64,000 nucleotides of DNA. Origin: a plasmid. The translations under genes were made by a program, and so were the position numbers. Of this stretch, positions 3,512 through 11,595 are shown piece after piece; within the stretch, counting starts at the first letter, position 1; each line of letters begins with the position of its first letter. The notes under the pieces are model-generated. The model ran no database searches, was not told the DNA's origin, and was given only the letters and a program-made list of their open reading frames with translations. The DNA lies in the sequence record NZ_CP072340.1; one strand, 5' to 3'.

Positions 3512-3588
3512 GGCTCCGTAGCTTAGCTGAATAGAGCGTAGGATTCCGGTTCCTAAGGTCATGGGTTTGAATCCCATCGGAGTCACCA
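3512..3588 (+). tRNA. tRNA-Arg (anticodon CCG)
   Basis: Hand-folded cloverleaf: acceptor GGCTCCG/CGGAGTC, D stem GCTT/GAGC, anticodon stem TAGGA/TCCTA with loop TTCCGGT (CCG), T arm ATGGG-TTTGAAT-CCCAT, discriminator A, and CCA encoded. Confidence 0.85.
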
Positions 3589-3622: not shown

Positions 3623-3828
3623 TAAAATAATGTTTGTGAAGATTATCAACGAGTTACAGACGTATATTAAATAAAAACAAAAATGCGTCTCTCTGTGTGG
3701 CCATTCCCTAATTTTGTTCCTTTCATTCTATCAATCCTGAACTTCCAATCAAGCAACTTTCCTCACCAATCGTACATCTTTTCCGCTGCGTGTAATGTGT
3801 TGTGGCACACCTCTCAAGCTGAGTACGA

Positions 3829-3893
3829 AGTTTTAGATATCAGTCACGTTCGTTTTAGATATCAGTAATGATAGTTTTAGATATCTAAAACTT
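3829..3893. repeat. array of three GATATC-centred boxes (TTTTAGATATC...) at exact 22-bp spacing; locus A
   Basis: GATATC at 3836, 3858 and 3880. The third box is the perfect palindrome gttttagatatctaaaac. The 30-mer ttagatatcagtcacgttcgttttagatatc recurs at 59403-59434. Confidence 0.7.
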
Positions 3894-8613: not shown

Positions 8614-8684
8614 TCTCGTTCCTTTTTTGTTTCTCAAAGGGTGTGTCTTCTTTACAAAAGGGCAAAGAACACAGTGCAAACTTA

Positions 8685-8726
8685 ATAAAAAAAGGTGAAA
8701 TCAACAACGATTTCACCTTTTTATAT
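8685..8726. terminator. bidirectional hairpin terminator (A-run / hairpin / T-run)
   Basis: aaaaaaaggtgaaatc-aacaacg-atttcaccttttt. Probably ends the small-peptide operon on the minus strand. Confidence 0.55.
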
Positions 8727-8811
8727 CTATGTATGTTGCAACTTGCCGATAGGGTTTCAGTAAGTTGTTGTATGCCATTTGCCTTAAAGATAGCAGCGAA
8801 TTGGCATGGAT

Positions 8812-8901
8812 TCAGCGGTTCTTTTTGTCTTGATACATAAAGTAAAGACGTCCAATTACTGCGCCCACAAAGAGCAAAATCGCTACTGCTAATGTTCCCA
8901 T
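8812..8901 (-). CDS. small single-TM peptide, 29 aa (MGTLAVAILLFVGAVIGRLYFMYQDKKNR)
   Basis: Hand translation of the minus strand, ATG at 8901-8899 and TGA at 8814-8812. ggagaatagt precedes the ATG. Paralog of the next two peptides. Confidence 0.55.
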   Translation of the reverse strand: MGTLAVAILLFVGAVIGRLYFMYQDKKNR

Positions 8902-8924
8902 ACTATTCTCCTAACTTCTAATTA

Positions 8925-9032
8925 CTATCCTTTTCCGTTAGATTTACGGTTCTTTTTGTCTTGATACATAAAGTAAAGACCTCCAATTGTTGCTATTAAC
9001 GAAACTAAAATCGATGCTACTATTGCTCCCAT
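8925..9032 (-). CDS. small single-TM peptide, 35 aa (MGAIVASILVSLIATIGGLYFMYQDKKNRKSNGKG)
   Basis: Hand translation, ATG at 9032-9030. Same hydrophobic-core plus YQDKKNR tail architecture. Confidence 0.55.
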   Translation of the reverse strand: MGAIVASILVSLIATIGGLYFMYQDKKNRKSNGKG

Positions 9033-9068
9033 ACTATTCTCCTAACTTCTAATTACTATCCTTTTCCG

Positions 9069-9164
9069 TTAGGATTTACGGTTCTTTCTGTCTTGATATA
9101 TAAAGTAAAGACCACTAATTGTTGCTAATAACGAAACAAAAATCGATACTATTACTGCGCCCAT
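9069..9164 (-). CDS. small single-TM peptide, 31 aa (MGAVIVSIFVSLLATISGLYFIYQDRKNRKS)
   Basis: Hand translation, ATG at 9164-9162, two nt after the stop of the upstream 63-aa ORF. Confidence 0.55.
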   Translation of the reverse strand: MGAVIVSIFVSLLATISGLYFIYQDRKNRKS

Positions 9165-9165
9165 A

Positions 9166-9357
9166 CTATTCTCCTTCCTTCTGTTTTTTATCTTTATTGA
9201 TTAAAATGAGACCCCAACCTAAAGTCAATATTGTGCCAATCATCACCCCAACAAAGACCCAAGGGCGGTTCATATTGCCCAAAGCCGAAGATAATAGCAA
9301 AGCTGTTACCATATACTTTGCTATATCCATAAACCATTTTCCTAACTCTTTTTTCAT
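9166..9357 (-). CDS. small membrane protein, 63 aa, whose C-terminal half is paralogous to the three peptides downstream
   Basis: ...WVFVGVMIGTILTLGWGLILINKDKKQKEGE parallels AVIVSIFVSLLATISGLYFIYQDRKNRKS. The -7-like TATATTTG sits immediately 5' of the ATG on the minus strand (plus 9362-9369), so the transcript is leaderless or very short-leadered. Confidence 0.5.
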   Translation of the reverse strand: MKKELGKWFMDIAKYMVTALLLSSALGNMNRPWVFVGVMIGTILTLGWGLILINKDKKQKEGE

Positions 9358-9473
9358 AATGCAAATATATAAATAATTCTTGTATTACGGTTCTTATTCT
9401 TAGAAAAAATAGCCAATATCTTTTATTTTGCCCTTCTTTCTATCGCTATTGGTGTTTTATTATAATTCAAAAG

Positions 9474-9512
9474 AAACCTCGCTATAAAGGAATATCCCAT
9501 ATAACGAGGTTT
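9474..9512 (-). terminator. hairpin terminator downstream of htpG
   Basis: aaacctcg-ctataaaggaatatcccatataa-cgaggttt. Confidence 0.5.
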
Positions 9513-9537: not shown

Positions 9538-11595
9538 TTACTTAATTAAGTCTACCGAACGCTTAATAAACTTGTCGAGCGCAGCACCCTTTAGCAATCC
9601 GTTTTGCAAGAGAGCGAGGTCTATTAGCTGATGTATGGCATTATTGTTCTTGGCATAATCGGCTATCACAGTGTTCTTTTCGTTACGCTGTTTCGTAAGT
9701 TCTTCCTCTGTGTTCTTAAGTTCGTCCTTCTCGTTTTGGGTAACTTCCTCTGGCTTTTTCTTACCTTGTGCCTGTCGCAAGGCAGCTTCGCGCGCCTGCA
9801 AACCCTTAATTTCGCTACGTATAGGCTGTAGTTTTTCGGCAGTAGAAGTATTGCTTTCGCTCAGAATTTGCTTAATAATGGCGTGGTCAGAGTTCAGTAC
9901 GATGGTGTATGTGTCGGGCATTTGTGCATAGAAACCCATACCCTGCTGGTATTGGCTCATCTCTTTCATACGGCGCATATACTCGTTTTGTGTTGCCACA
10001 ATTGGCTGAGCGGTTTCGCCCAATGGCTCTACGCTTACCATAAACTCTGCCTTTTCCACCTTAGGCAGCTGCGATTGGAAAGCCTGAGTTAGCGTATCGG
10101 CATCGTTTTCGCCAAGTTTTTCGCCCTTTGTTTCGTCTTTTTTCGCAATGATATGGTCTATAACGTCAGAGTCTACCCGTACAAAACGCGACTTGTCGAA
10201 CTTCTGTTCCAGCATGGAAAGCGTAGGAACGTCTAACTGTCCGTTGGCTAACAGCACGGAATATCCCTTTGCACGTGCCGTTTCAATGTATGAATACTGT
10301 TCCTCTTTTTCGGTTGCGTAGAGGTAAACAAGCGTTCCGTCCTTGTCGGTCTGGTTGTCTTTAATAAGCGTTTTATACTCTTCGAAGGTGAAGTTCTTGC
10401 CATCTACATCGGTAAAGAGCGAGAAATCTTTTGCACGGTCGTAGAAATCGGGTTGCGAAAGCATACCATAGTTCACGAAAAGCTTAAGGTCTTGCCACTT
10501 TTCTTCGTACTCTTTACGGTTCTCTTTGAATATTCCGTTAAGCCTGTCTGCCACTTTCTTGGTGATGTAAGTAGATATTTTCTTTACGTTAGCATCGCTT
10601 TGCAAATAGCTTCGGCTCACGTTCAGCGGTATATCCGGTGAGTCTATCACACCATGAAGCAGGGTAAGGAACTCCGGAACAATGCCTTCTACCTGGTCTG
10701 TAACGAATACTTGGTTGCAATAGAGCTGTATCTTGTTGCGCTGAAGCTCTATATTGTTCTTCACGCGTGGGAAATACAGAATGCCGGTCAGGTGGAATGG
10801 ATAGTCAACATTCAGGTGAATCCAGAACAAAGGTTCGTCGTTCATTGGGAAGAGCGTACGATAGAACTGCTTGTAGTCCTCGTCTTTCAGTTCAGCGGGA
10901 GCTTTTGTCCATAGCGGTTCCACATTATTTATAATGTTGTCCTTATCTGTTTCCACGCTTTTACCGTCTTTCCATTCGGTTTGTTTGCCGAAGACAACGG
11001 GCACAGCCATAAACTTGCAGTACTTGTTCAGCAGGCTTTCTATCTTCTGTTTCTGTAAAAACTCCTTGCAATCGTCGTCTATATGGAGCACGACATCGGT
11101 GCCATGGGTTGCCTTTTCGGTATCTTCTATCGAAAATTCCGGGCTTCCGTCGCAGCTCCAACGTACTGCTTGTGCCCCGTCGCGATAGCTTTTGGTTACT
11201 ATTTCAACCTTTTTAGACACCATGAAGGCAGAGTAGAAGCCCAGACCGAAGTGTCCTATGATGGCTTCAGCCTTGTCTTTGTACTTGTCCAAGAAGTCTG
11301 TAACACCCGAAAAGGCTATCTGGTTGATGTATTTGTCTATCTCTTCTGCCGTCATACCTATGCCATCATCGCTTACGGTGAGTGTTCCGGCTTTTTCGTC
11401 GAGACTTACACGAACCTTCAAATCGTTGGTTTCGCCTTTAAACTCGCCTGTTGCAGCAAGCGTGCGCAGCTTTTGTGTTGCATCGACAGCGTTAGATACC
11501 AACTCGCGAAGGAAGATGTCGTGGTCGGAATAGAGGAATTTCTTAATGACAGGGAATATGTTCTCTGTCGTTACACCTATTTTACCTTTTTGCAT
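9538..11595 (-). CDS. htpG: molecular chaperone HtpG (Hsp90)
   Basis: 685 aa. N-terminal GHKL ATPase motifs (LRELVSNAVDA, DDGIGMT) and overall Hsp90 architecture. Confidence 0.92.
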   Translation of the reverse strand: MQKGKIGVTTENIFPVIKKFLYSDHDIFLRELVSNAVDATQKLRTLAATGEFKGETNDLKVRVSLDEKAGTLTVSDDGIGMTAEEIDKYINQIAFSGVTDFLDKYKDKAEAIIGHFGLGFYSAFMVSKKVEIVTKSYRDGAQAVRWSCDGSPEFSIEDTEKATHGTDVVLHIDDDCKEFLQKQKIESLLNKYCKFMAVPVVFGKQTEWKDGKSVETDKDNIINNVEPLWTKAPAELKDEDYKQFYRTLFPMNDEPLFWIHLNVDYPFHLTGILYFPRVKNNIELQRNKIQLYCNQVFVTDQVEGIVPEFLTLLHGVIDSPDIPLNVSRSYLQSDANVKKISTYITKKVADRLNGIFKENRKEYEEKWQDLKLFVNYGMLSQPDFYDRAKDFSLFTDVDGKNFTFEEYKTLIKDNQTDKDGTLVYLYATEKEEQYSYIETARAKGYSVLLANGQLDVPTLSMLEQKFDKSRFVRVDSDVIDHIIAKKDETKGEKLGENDADTLTQAFQSQLPKVEKAEFMVSVEPLGETAQPIVATQNEYMRRMKEMSQYQQGMGFYAQMPDTYTIVLNSDHAIIKQILSESNTSTAEKLQPIRSEIKGLQAREAALRQAQGKKKPEEVTQNEKDELKNTEEELTKQRNEKNTVIADYAKNNNAIHQLIDLALLQNGLLKGAALDKFIKRSVDLIK

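What the first reader, a model, noticed from the sequence alone, without database searches (positions are those of the whole stretch)
8811..9357. Tandemly amplified operon of four paralogous small single-TM peptides (29-63 aa)
Three ~130-bp direct repeats each encode a 29-35 aa peptide: a hydrophobic ~22-aa core followed by a basic tail YF(M/I)YQD(K/R)KNR(KS). Upstream sits a 63-aa protein whose C-terminal half (GTILTLGWGLILINKDKKQKEGE) is a diverged copy of the same unit. The 63-aa stop overlaps a GGAGAATAGTATG start context, and that context is duplicated with each unit. The cluster sits between a leaderless-type -7 promoter and a bidirectional terminator, so it reads as one transcription unit on the minus strand. 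The architecture (hydrophobic helix plus charged C-tail, tandem gene amplification) resembles type I toxin peptides (Fst/Ldr/Ibs/TisB-like) or small membrane modulators. No named family is recognisable by eye, and none of the peptides is in the ORF track (all under 60 aa). This is the most unusual locus in the window.
Basis: seen in the sequence. Interest (0 to 1): 0.8.

Follow-up and report, generated by a model that had tools for sequence, protein, structure and literature searches.

The report
Amplified microprotein partner of DUF6722
This Prevotella nigrescens locus is a small self-contained operon for a 63-aa two-helix membrane protein (Pfam DUF6722) followed by three tandem copies of an unnamed ~30-aa one-helix membrane peptide; the pair recurs across Bacteroidales chromosomes, phage contigs and plasmids, its expression signals are unusual for this group, and its function is unknown.

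Summary
On the minus strand, a 63-aa ORF (9166-9357) is followed by three 131-132-bp tandem units, each with an intact 29-35-aa ORF.

The 63-aa protein belongs to Pfam DUF6722. The peptides match no family in the libraries searched, but they are real genes. In 84 of 85 distinct DUF6722 loci, an ATG ORF starts within -12..+30 nt of the DUF6722 stop. Of these, 77 carry the motif YF-x-x-QDKK, and the conserved residues use all synonymous codons.

Copy number is 1 in P. intermedia, 3-5 in P. nigrescens and 2-5 in P. pallens.

Two expression features mark the family:
- A Bacteroidetes -7 promoter box ends 2-8 nt before the DUF6722 ATG in 39 of 59 loci, against 6 of 333 control genes. This implies a leaderless mRNA.
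- A Shine-Dalgarno-like AAGGAG lies before the peptide ATG, in an order whose ribosomes are reported to ignore such sequences.

The cassette has no conserved neighbours. It also occurs on phage contigs, next to repressor and antirepressor genes, and on plasmids.

A type I toxin-antitoxin reading is not supported. I found no antisense promoter box and no family match, and a lineage with a frameshifted DUF6722 keeps intact peptide genes.

Best reading: two small proteins that work together in the membrane, encoded on a mobile accessory cassette. Their physiological role is inferred only.

The parts
9362..9369 (-). Bacteroidetes sigma-ABfr type -7 promoter box, TATATTTG. It ends 4 nt before the DUF6722 ATG, so the mRNA is predicted to be leaderless or nearly so.
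   Evidence: Pattern match. The same box ends 2-8 nt before the ATG (mode 4) in 39 of 59 distinct loci, against 6 of 333 control genes; Fisher p = 1.7e-32. The consensus is described as centred at -7 (PMC7366714). The transcription start itself is inferred, not measured.
9166..9357 (-). DUF6722 family gene, 63 aa. Predicted two-helix membrane hairpin with a highly conserved N-terminus, MKKELGKW(F/L)MDIAKYxxTA, and a basic C-tail.
   Evidence: Pfam PF20482, E 3.5e-14, 53.2 bits against a cut-off of 27. The exact sequence is named 'DUF6722 family protein [Prevotella nigrescens]'. AlphaFold2 gives helices 2-26 and 32-61, pLDDT 76. N-terminal residues are invariant while their codons vary synonymously.
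9171..9180 (-). Shine-Dalgarno-like AAGGAAGGAG inside the last codons of DUF6722, 7 nt before the peptide A start codon.
   Evidence: Duplex energy with the CACCUCCUU tail is -8.1 kcal/mol; only 1 of 41 window genes reaches -7. Family-wide: mean -7.2 against -1.7 for flanking genes, p = 2.7e-16. Glycine codons in the DUF6722 tail are GGR in 40 of 41 cases, against 192 of 388 in the body of the gene, p = 1.2e-10.
9069..9164 (-). Peptide gene A, 31 aa, single TM helix plus YFIYQDRKNRKS tail. The ATG lies 1 nt after the DUF6722 stop.
   Evidence: ORF. The exact sequence is on 261 public contigs. The family-wide partner gene is documented.
9039..9043 (-). AGGAG before peptide gene B, duplicated with the repeat unit.
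   Evidence: Duplex energy -7.3 kcal/mol.
8925..9032 (-). Peptide gene B, 35 aa. A 1-nt deletion relative to unit A extends the tail by NGKG.
   Evidence: The exact sequence is on 172 contigs.
8908..8912 (-). AGGAG before peptide gene C.
   Evidence: Duplex energy -7.3 kcal/mol.
8812..8901 (-). Peptide gene C, 29 aa. This is the most diverged unit and is always last in the arrays of P. nigrescens and P. pallens.
   Evidence: The exact sequence is on at least 1000 contigs.
8808..9182 (.). Tandem array of 131-132-bp units. Each unit holds the SD-like site, a peptide ORF and a spacer of about 36 nt.
   Evidence: TRF score 529. The repeat finder family D1.
8680..8727 (-). Intrinsic terminator of the operon: a 15-bp stem flanked by an A-run and a U-run, so it can act in both directions.
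   Evidence: Inverted repeat I1. The fold of 8670-8815 gives -38.3 kcal/mol, z = -4.94. The same hairpin follows the single peptide gene in P. intermedia.

Best explanation
This is a free-standing operon for two kinds of small inner-membrane protein that work as a pair.

Expression. Transcription starts from a -7 box placed so close to the first ATG that the mRNA is leaderless or nearly so. DUF6722, a two-helix hairpin with both ends in the cytoplasm, is translated from that 5'-terminal AUG. The partner microprotein has one TM helix, a predicted N-out/C-in orientation, and an interfacial G-x-x-Y-F-x-x-Q-D-K-K motif. It is translated from an ATG within a few bases of the DUF6722 stop, helped by an accessible AAGGAG element. 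A terminator closes the unit.

Amplification. In the P. nigrescens / P. pallens lineage, the peptide cistron with its own AGGAG and start context has been amplified. Unequal recombination between 132-bp units gives 2-5 copies, three of them here. This raises peptide dosage and adds variant TM helices relative to DUF6722.

Products and role. I infer that the products assemble into a DUF6722:peptide hetero-oligomer in the cytoplasmic membrane. The cassette moves between unrelated chromosomal sites. It also rides on temperate-phage regulatory regions and on plasmids. I therefore think it is an accessory, membrane-level protective or exclusion module, not a self-poisoning toxin.

Shown: coding status, pairing of the two genes, copy-number variation, promoter and SD-like motifs, and presence on mobile elements.
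Inferred: transcription start, translational coupling, membrane topology, physical interaction and physiological role.
For: Pairing and coding:
- 84 of 85 distinct DUF6722 loci have an ATG ORF of at least 20 aa starting -12..+30 nt from the stop. 82 of them are hydrophobic and 77 carry the motif. The conserved residues A, G, Y, F, Q, D, K, K use all their synonymous codons.
- The gap from stop to ATG is -4..+4 nt in 47 of 51 junctions.
- Comparisons of window units A and B with the P. intermedia ortholog give pN/pS of about 0.3.

Expression signals:
- Leaderless promoter geometry: 39 of 59 loci against 6 of 333 controls. Only about 3.7% of B. thetaiotaomicron 5'UTRs are shorter than 10 nt (PMC7366714).
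- SD-like element. It persists when it lies after the stop codon (L022, L056, L075, L082). It is predicted to be unpaired, with no conserved structure around it.

Amplification:
- 1 copy in P. intermedia, 3-5 in P. nigrescens and 2-5 in P. pallens. The first and last units are constant and every fully sequenced unit has an intact ORF (one metagenome array, L090, is broken by a scaffold gap).
- Independent duplications occur in Parabacteroides (L053), a Bacteroidia isolate (L083) and phage contigs (L101-L107).

Free-standing and mobile:
- 204 neighbouring genes fall into 175 clusters. The commonest Pfam family covers only 4 of 110 nearest neighbours.
- 39 IMG/VR loci have neighbours matching Ant, Rha and HTH-repressor families, plus portal, packaging and SSB proteins.
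- A B. ovatus plasmid with replication and relaxase genes carries a divergent pair.

Structure: DUF6722 is predicted as a helical hairpin.

Against a toxic peptide: the frameshifted-DUF6722 lineage keeps intact peptide arrays.
Against: - No expression, localisation or interaction data exist for any member. No paper in the searchable library mentions DUF6722 or the peptide motifs.
- Physical association is inferred only from strict gene pairing.
- Most loci sit among ordinary chromosomal genes, not in mobile elements.
- IMG/VR contigs can include host flanks, and no GenBank phage genome carries the pair.
- Bacteroidia ribosomes are reported to be blind to SD sequences (PMC9976891, PMC7797042). 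The AAGGAG element may therefore not work as an SD. The GGA codon bias could partly reflect a preference for A-rich starts.
- Within-species copy numbers come mostly from short-read metagenome assemblies, and one of them (L090) has a gap inside the array.
- The loci were found with patterns from the DUF6722 N-terminus, so its apparent invariance is partly due to how they were selected.
Confidence: 0.5

Rival explanations
1. A protein-protein addiction or abortive-infection pair. DUF6722 is a holin-like membrane toxin, and the co-translated peptide is its membrane antidote.
For: - The cassette has its own promoter and terminator, sits in variable genomic sites and occurs on phage contigs and plasmids.
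- Only the putative antidote is amplified.
- DUF6722-null alleles are tolerated while the peptides are kept.
- Tight coupling would ensure the antidote is made whenever the toxin is made.
Against: - No match to any PADLOC defence model or PHROG holin family.
- No lysis genes among the commonest phage neighbours.
- The locus has been stable and syntenic across three Prevotella species.
- The strongly conserved cytoplasmic N-terminus of DUF6722 suggests a specific partner, not generic pore formation.
- Toxicity is untested.
Confidence: 0.15
2. Housekeeping accessory subunits, in the manner of KdpF, CydX or AcrZ. They would bind and tune a larger conserved membrane machine encoded elsewhere.
For: - Most loci lie among ordinary chromosomal genes: htpG, Mrp/ParA-like, surE and others.
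- Both proteins are under strong purifying selection on short interfacial or cytoplasmic motifs.
Against: - No conserved neighbour.
- No match to any chain in solved structures.
- The cassette occurs on phage contigs and plasmids.
- Null alleles and copy-number variation exist within one species.
Confidence: 0.12
3. A type I toxin-antitoxin locus. Each peptide is a membrane-depolarising toxin controlled by an antisense small RNA within the repeat.
For: - The peptides resemble type I toxins in size, single TM helix and charged tail.
- Tandem amplification is known for the Ldr and Ibs loci of E. coli (from my own knowledge, not tested here).
Against: - No -7 promoter box on the antisense strand between 8685 and 9500.
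- No Rfam hit.
- No Pfam or NCBIfam toxin family match.
- No conserved RNA structure at the start region; it is predicted to be open.
- The peptide gene is always the second cistron of a protein-coding operon.
- Up to five copies are tolerated, even with DUF6722 broken.
Confidence: 0.04
4. A multi-peptide leaderless bacteriocin, like aureocin A70 or garvicin KS, with DUF6722 as the immunity protein.
For: - The locus holds tandem paralogous peptides of about 30 aa that start MGA... and have no leader.
- A small two-TM protein is encoded alongside them.
- The resemblance to the named bacteriocins is recalled from memory and was not tested.
Against: - The peptides contain about 20 contiguous uncharged hydrophobic residues, a membrane anchor and not a cationic amphipathic helix.
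- There is no linked exporter or any other conserved neighbour.
- No bacteriocin family match.
- Most species have a single copy.
Confidence: 0.04
5. A non-coding repeat whose short ORFs arise by chance.
For: The ORFs are under 36 codons and are often skipped by gene callers.
Against: - The frame, start position and motif are conserved in 77-84 of 85 loci across Bacteroidales families, with free synonymous variation.
- Every fully sequenced copy is intact in the strain arrays examined.
Confidence: 0.01

Closest known systems
Pfam DUF6722 (PF20482), an uncharacterised Bacteroidales small-protein family
   Same: The 63-aa protein is a full-length member. NCBI already names identical proteins 'DUF6722 family protein'.
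   Different: In the sources I could search, I found no description of the constant downstream microprotein, the leaderless promoter geometry, the SD-like element, the amplification or the phage and plasmid copies.
Type I toxin peptides (Fst, Ldr, Ibs, TisB, Hok)
   Same: Short single-TM peptides with a charged end. Tandem gene copies occur in some loci (Ldr, Ibs; from my own knowledge).
   Different: No sequence-family match, no antisense promoter box or RNA, second cistron of a protein operon, and an open start region.
Small membrane proteins encoded as prophage 'morons', such as superinfection-exclusion proteins (P22 SieA next to the immI mnt-arc-ant region, T4 Imm/Sp, HK97 gp15; recalled from knowledge)
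   Same: A small inner-membrane product, its own promoter and terminator, and a position beside repressor, Arc-like and antirepressor genes in phage contigs.
   Different: No homology. Most copies are chromosomal, outside prophages. No exclusion phenotype has been tested.
Accessory microproteins of membrane complexes (KdpF, CydX, AcrZ, MgtS)
   Same: One-TM peptides of 30-50 aa with conserved interfacial residues.
   Different: Those are encoded with or regulate a known machine. Here the only constant partner is another small protein.
SD-led genes in Bacteroidia (rpsU autoregulation by ribosomes lacking bS21; rpsR in Bacteroidales), PMC9976891 and PMC7797042
   Same: A rare case of strong complementarity to the 16S 3' tail upstream of a start codon in this class.
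   Different: Complementarity is 5-7 nt, not the extended pairing of up to 13 bp seen at rpsU. The gene encodes a membrane microprotein placed right after a stop codon. The papers report that Bacteroidales do not meet the criteria for rpsU autoregulation.

Membership tests
Pfam DUF6722 (PF20482) | Score above the curated gathering cut-off over the full model | tested here: met
   53.2 bits against 27; model positions 1-49 of 49.
DUF6722-partner microprotein (unnamed family defined here) | ATG ORF of 28-49 aa starting within a few nt of a DUF6722 stop, with one TM helix and the motif [YF][YF]xx[QEHK][DE][KRWH] | tested here: met
   All three window peptides fit. 77 of 85 loci fit.
Type I toxin-antitoxin | Small hydrophobic toxin peptide (under 60 aa) | tested here: met
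   29-35 aa with one TM segment.
Type I toxin-antitoxin | Cis- or trans-encoded antisense RNA antitoxin with its own promoter | tested here: inconclusive
   No TAnnTTTG box on the + strand between 8685 and 9500 and no Rfam family. RNA-seq would be needed to exclude it.
Type I toxin-antitoxin | Homology to a described toxin family (Fst, Ldr, Ibs, TisB, Hok and others) | tested here: not met
   No Pfam or NCBIfam match up to E = 10 or 1, other than non-specific TM hits.
Type I toxin-antitoxin | Toxicity on overexpression | not testable with these tools
   Indirect evidence only: up to five copies, and intact arrays beside a broken DUF6722.
Leaderless multi-peptide bacteriocins | Cationic amphipathic secreted peptides with a linked exporter and immunity genes | tested here: not met
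   About 20 contiguous hydrophobic residues. No conserved neighbours. No bacteriocin Pfam hit.
Phage holin / antiholin | Match to holin families and adjacency to an endolysin | tested here: not met
   Best PHROG holin hits have E of 0.15-0.2. Phage neighbours are regulators, with no lysis family among the 25 commonest.
Prophage moron / superinfection-exclusion gene | Autonomous promoter and terminator, with a location in the lysogeny-control region of temperate phages | tested here: met
   Promoter box and terminator. Ant, Rha, HTH and Arc-like neighbours in IMG/VR loci. This applies to the phage-borne relatives, not to the window locus.
Prophage moron / superinfection-exclusion gene | Blocks infection by other phages | not testable with these tools
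   No experimental data.
Known anti-phage defence systems (PADLOC) | Match to a defence-protein model | tested here: not met
   No hit at E up to 1.
SD-dependent genes of Bacteroidia (rpsU type) | Strong predicted SD-ASD pairing (-7 kcal/mol or stronger) | tested here: met
   -8.1, -7.3 and -7.3 kcal/mol in the window. 29 of 47 junctions across species reach -7.
SD-dependent genes of Bacteroidia (rpsU type) | Extended complementarity (up to 13 bp) to the 16S 3' tail | tested here: not met
   The core is AAGGAG(G/A) only. The criterion comes from PMC9976891.

The most novel reading that the evidence does not exclude
The DUF6722 + microprotein cassette is a previously undescribed, mobile two-component membrane system of Bacteroidales, for example a phage or DNA-entry exclusion device. 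Its second cistron would be expressed through real SD-anti-SD pairing in ribosomes otherwise blind to SD, either by terminating 70S ribosomes on a leaderless mRNA or by a specialised ribosome pool. Its peptide array would expand and contract to tune stoichiometry or specificity.
Probability: 0.15. Interest if true: 0.8.

Novelty: new variant of a known kind. Interest (0 to 1): 0.6.

Why it matters
Bacteroidales dominate the human gut and are important in the mouth, yet their small membrane proteins are almost uncharted. This locus reveals three things.
- A Pfam 'DUF' family has a constant, mostly unannotated microprotein partner across the order.
- It gives a clear comparative-genomics case for a leaderless mRNA in this group.
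- It shows a conserved Shine-Dalgarno-like element in bacteria whose ribosomes are reported not to use such sequences.

The locus could serve as a compact natural reporter for how re-initiation, or specialised ribosomes, work in Bacteroidia.

The recurrent amplification of only the peptide cistron, and the presence of the pair in phage regulatory regions and on plasmids, point to a dosage-sensitive accessory membrane function. That function could bear on phage-host or competitive interactions in the oral and gut microbiota.

Tried and rejected
- Pfam, NCBIfam, PHROGs and PADLOC scans of the peptides gave only non-specific TM hits.
- Profile searches of both families against all PDB chains gave nothing below E = 0.08.
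A 45-sequence alignment headed by a 40-aa member worked.
- Guilt by association failed. No neighbour is conserved across 61 species loci.
- A precomputed domain, PF28423, appears on fused two-unit proteins. It is absent from the local Pfam copy and from the literature, so I could not identify it.
- GenBank phage genomes hold no homolog.
- Literature searches for DUF6722, PF20482 and the peptide motifs found nothing. Sberro et al. 2019 is not held.
- I looked for an RNA hairpin hiding the SD-like site or start codon. RNAalifold predicted no pairs, and the site is predicted to be open.
- I considered natural DUF6722-peptide fusions (P0006, P0064, P0078) as evidence of interaction. In P0006 the fused reading is explained by loss of a single base at the junction. 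The fusion would also put basic segments on both sides of TM3. I treat these fusions as mutations or assembly errors.
- I considered programmed frameshifting at the A-run. The required shift is +1 and there is no supporting signal, so I rejected it.
- I did not attempt an AlphaFold complex from a mixed alignment, because MAFFT placed the free peptides on TM2 of DUF6722.
Full report
**What is there**

All features below lie on the minus strand of the window.
- After the htpG-like gene (9538-11595) and its hairpin terminator, there is a Bacteroidetes -7 promoter box, TATATTTG, at 9362-9369.
- Four bases later the 63-aa ORF begins (9166-9357).
- Its stop (TAG 9168-9166) is followed, after one base, by the ATG of a 31-aa ORF (9069-9164).
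- Two further ORFs follow, of 35 aa (8925-9032) and 29 aa (8812-8901).
- Each ORF sits in a 131-132-bp direct repeat unit that also carries the context AGGAGAATAGTATG.
- Tandem Repeats Finder scores the array 529. It is the only large tandem repeat in the 64 kb.
- A 15-bp hairpin with A- and U-runs at about 8680-8727 closes the unit.
- A second -7 box (8677-8684) then precedes the yihY/BrkB-like gene.

**Identity of the parts**

The 63-aa protein is a full-length member of Pfam DUF6722: 53 bits against a cut-off of 27. The identical sequence is annotated 'DUF6722 family protein [Prevotella nigrescens]' and occurs on 840 public contigs. This places the window in P. nigrescens.

AlphaFold2, using 32 homologs, predicts a helical hairpin with helices 2-26 and 32-61 and pLDDT 76.

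The three peptides match nothing in Pfam, NCBIfam, PHROGs, PADLOC or the PDB beyond non-specific transmembrane hits. Their exact sequences are present on 172 to at least 1000 public contigs, unnamed or labelled 'hypothetical protein'.

**The peptide is a real, conserved partner gene**

I fetched DUF6722 loci from 80 GTDB species, spanning Prevotellaceae, Bacteroidaceae, Tannerellaceae, Muribaculaceae, Dysgonomonadaceae and Butyricimonas, among others. I added strain loci from metagenomes and isolates.

Without using any motif filter, I counted 85 distinct loci with a complete DUF6722 gene and at least 150 nt downstream. Among them:
- 84 have an ATG ORF of at least 20 codons starting -12..+30 nt from the stop.
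- 82 of those ORFs are hydrophobic.
- 77 carry [YF][YF]xx[QEHK][DE][KRWH].

The consensus is MGA(L/I)(I/V)M...A.VG.(I/L)YF..QDKK. At the conserved positions all synonymous codons are used. Examples are Ala GCC/GCA/GCT/GCG, Gly GGA/GGC/GGT at 19 each, Gln CAA/CAG and Asp GAC/GAT. Selection therefore acts on the protein.

Comparisons of window units A and B with the P. intermedia ortholog give pS 0.46-0.49 against pN 0.13-0.15. Paralogs within one array give a ratio near 1, but on very few sites.

A profile of the three window peptides finds 74 cluster representatives in 1.84 billion proteins. A 45-member profile finds 295 proteins in the 5.8-billion-sequence set.

**Copy number**
- P. intermedia has one peptide gene, in four loci that include isolate GCA_002753835.1.
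- P. pallens has 2, 3, 4 or 5. ATCC 700821 has 5.
- P. nigrescens loci that share an identical DUF6722 protein have 3, 4 or 5. Isolate GCA_002204475.1 has 4 and the window has 3.

The first unit (MGAVIVSIF...) and the last unit (MGTLAVAILLF...) are constant. The inner units look like mosaics, which suggests unequal recombination. Every fully sequenced unit has an intact ORF.

One metagenome scaffold has a run of Ns inside the array. Within-species numbers from short-read assemblies therefore need long-read confirmation.

Independent duplications of the peptide gene occur elsewhere: in a Parabacteroides (L053), a Bacteroidia isolate (L083) and phage contigs (L101-L107). In-frame two-unit fusions also exist (P0100-P0106). 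DUF6722 itself is never duplicated in these arrays.

**Expression signals**

Promoter. The -7 box TAnnTTTG ends 2-8 nt before the DUF6722 ATG (mode 4) in 39 of 59 distinct upstream regions. In control genes from the same loci and the window the figure is 6 of 333 (Fisher p = 1.7e-32). The motif is described as centred at -7. Only about 3.7% of B. thetaiotaomicron 5'UTRs are shorter than 10 nt (PMC7366714). A leaderless or nearly leaderless mRNA is thus a family hallmark. This is inferred, not measured.

Junction. The gap from stop to ATG is -4..+4 nt in 47 of 51 junctions.

SD-like element:
- 43 of 51 junctions carry AAGGAG(G/A) 5-10 nt before the peptide ATG. This includes loci where the element lies after the stop codon (L022, L056, L075, L082).
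- Predicted pairing with the 16S 3' tail averages -7.2 kcal/mol, and 29 of 47 junctions reach -7. For 217 flanking genes the mean is -1.7 and only 9 reach -7 (p = 2.7e-16). In the window, 1 of 41 genes reaches -7.
- Glycine codons in the last five DUF6722 codons are GGA or GGG in 40 of 41 cases, against 192 of 388 elsewhere in the gene (p = 1.2e-10). This indicates a constraint at the nucleotide level.
- The element is predicted to be unpaired, and RNAalifold finds no conserved structure around it.

This is unexpected. [quoted passage not shown] Strong SDs there are rare and concentrated at rpsU and rpsR (PMC9976891, PMC7797042, PMC13000453). Whether the element acts as an SD is open. It could, for example, help terminating 70S ribosomes re-initiate. 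A general preference for A-rich start regions could explain part of the codon bias.

**Genomic context**

In the three oral Prevotella species the cassette is syntenic: cobA-like, htpG, DUF6722, peptides, yihY/BrkB.

Across species there is no conserved neighbour. 204 flanking genes fall into 175 clusters. The commonest Pfam family among 110 nearest neighbours occurs four times.

The pair also occurs on mobile elements:
- It is on 39 IMG/VR viral contigs. Neighbours there match antirepressor (Ant/KilAC), Rha, HTH-repressor and Arc-like families. Portal, packaging, SSB and HNH proteins lie within 4 kb. No lysis family is among the commonest.
- It is on three PLSDB records. One is a 39.8-kb B. 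ovatus plasmid with replication and relaxase genes. There a divergent DUF6722 is followed, with start overlapping stop, by a 36-aa peptide of a second subtype with tail P-x-G-KK-W-L-K.
- GenBank phage genomes have no homolog.

**Testing the toxin idea**
- There is no antisense -7 box between 8685 and 9500.
- There is no Rfam family.
- There is no homology to known type I toxins.
- The start region is open, not sequestered.
- A P. nigrescens lineage has a G4-to-G5 frameshift that truncates DUF6722 to 54 aa. It includes strain F0103 and appears in 25 index blocks of the public-assembly collection. Two linked SNPs mark it as a real lineage. It retains arrays of three or four intact peptide genes.

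So the peptides are not lethal without an intact partner. Amplifying them five-fold is also tolerated.

The same facts fit an alternative in which DUF6722 is the harmful component and the peptide is its antidote. I keep that as the main rival.

**Is DUF6722 partly a copy of the peptide?**

hhalign aligns TM2 plus tail of DUF6722 with the peptide at probability 81%, E 1.2e-5 and 13% identity. MAFFT spontaneously aligned free peptides to that segment. The shared pattern is G-x-(I/L)-Y-(L/F)...D-K-K, with spacing that differs by one residue. Ancient duplication is possible. Convergence of a TM helix with a basic cytoplasmic tail is not excluded.

**Most likely mechanism**

The cassette is an autonomous operon. 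DUF6722 is translated from a 5'-terminal AUG. The peptide cistron or cistrons are translated by coupling or re-initiation at an accessible AAGGAG-ATG. Both products insert in the cytoplasmic membrane with their basic tails inside, following the positive-inside rule. They probably form a hetero-oligomer in which peptide dosage matters.

The cassette's mobility and its position in phage regulatory regions make an accessory protective or exclusion role my best guess. I give the architecture about 0.9 confidence, the physical partnership about 0.5 and the physiological role about 0.3.

**Novelty and score**

DUF6722 is catalogued but uncharacterised. I found no description, in the libraries and literature available here, of its constant microprotein partner, the leaderless-plus-SD-like expression design, the recurrent amplification of the peptide cistron alone, or the phage and plasmid copies.

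The locus is a new variant of a known kind, a small-membrane-protein operon, and is not shown to be a categorically new system. Interest: 0.6.

Noticed in passing
L138-L143 (P. nigrescens loci); corresponds to about window 9246-9249: A P. nigrescens lineage, including strain F0103, carries a G4-to-G5 frameshift that truncates DUF6722 to 54 aa while the peptide array stays intact. NCBI also lists 32-aa fragments.
   Followed up: yes
window 9385-9398: A 14-nt motif containing AAGAACCGTAA, the tail-coding part of the repeat unit, recurs upstream of the operon promoter (repeat finder family D2). It may be a relic of a former unit, or chance.
   Followed up: no
L144 5551-5849 (B. ovatus plasmid NZ_CP103211.1); also L013 (second ORF) and L136: A second peptide subtype with tail P-x-G-[KR][KR]-W-L-K follows divergent DUF6722 genes, with its start overlapping their stop.
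   Followed up: partly
P0006, P0064, P0078, P0027 (DUF6722-peptide fusions); P0100-P0106 (two peptide units in one ORF): Natural in-frame fusions exist. The DUF6722-peptide fusions are explained by loss of a single base at the junction and may be mutations or assembly errors. The two-unit fusions carry a precomputed Pfam label, PF28423, that is absent from the local Pfam copy.
   Followed up: partly
L026 ('Vibrio olivae', 688-bp contig) and L064 ('Enterobacteriaceae' MAG): Typical Bacteroidales DUF6722 + peptide pairs sit in records labelled as Proteobacteria. Contamination or mis-binning is likely.
   Followed up: no
window 3825-3885: A 22-nt tandem repeat of 2.8 copies lies about 240 nt downstream of tRNA-Arg(ccg), which is at 3512-3588.
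   Followed up: no
window 8677-8684 (-) and 9466-9512 (-): A second -7 box lies directly after the operon terminator and is the likely yihY/BrkB promoter, with its ATG at about 8613. A hairpin with a T-run lies right after the htpG stop. Together these bracket the operon as an independent transcription unit.
   Followed up: partly
L090 about 2830-2920: A run of Ns inside the peptide array of a metagenome scaffold shows that short-read assemblies can break or collapse this repeat. Copy numbers from metagenomes should be treated with care.
   Followed up: yes
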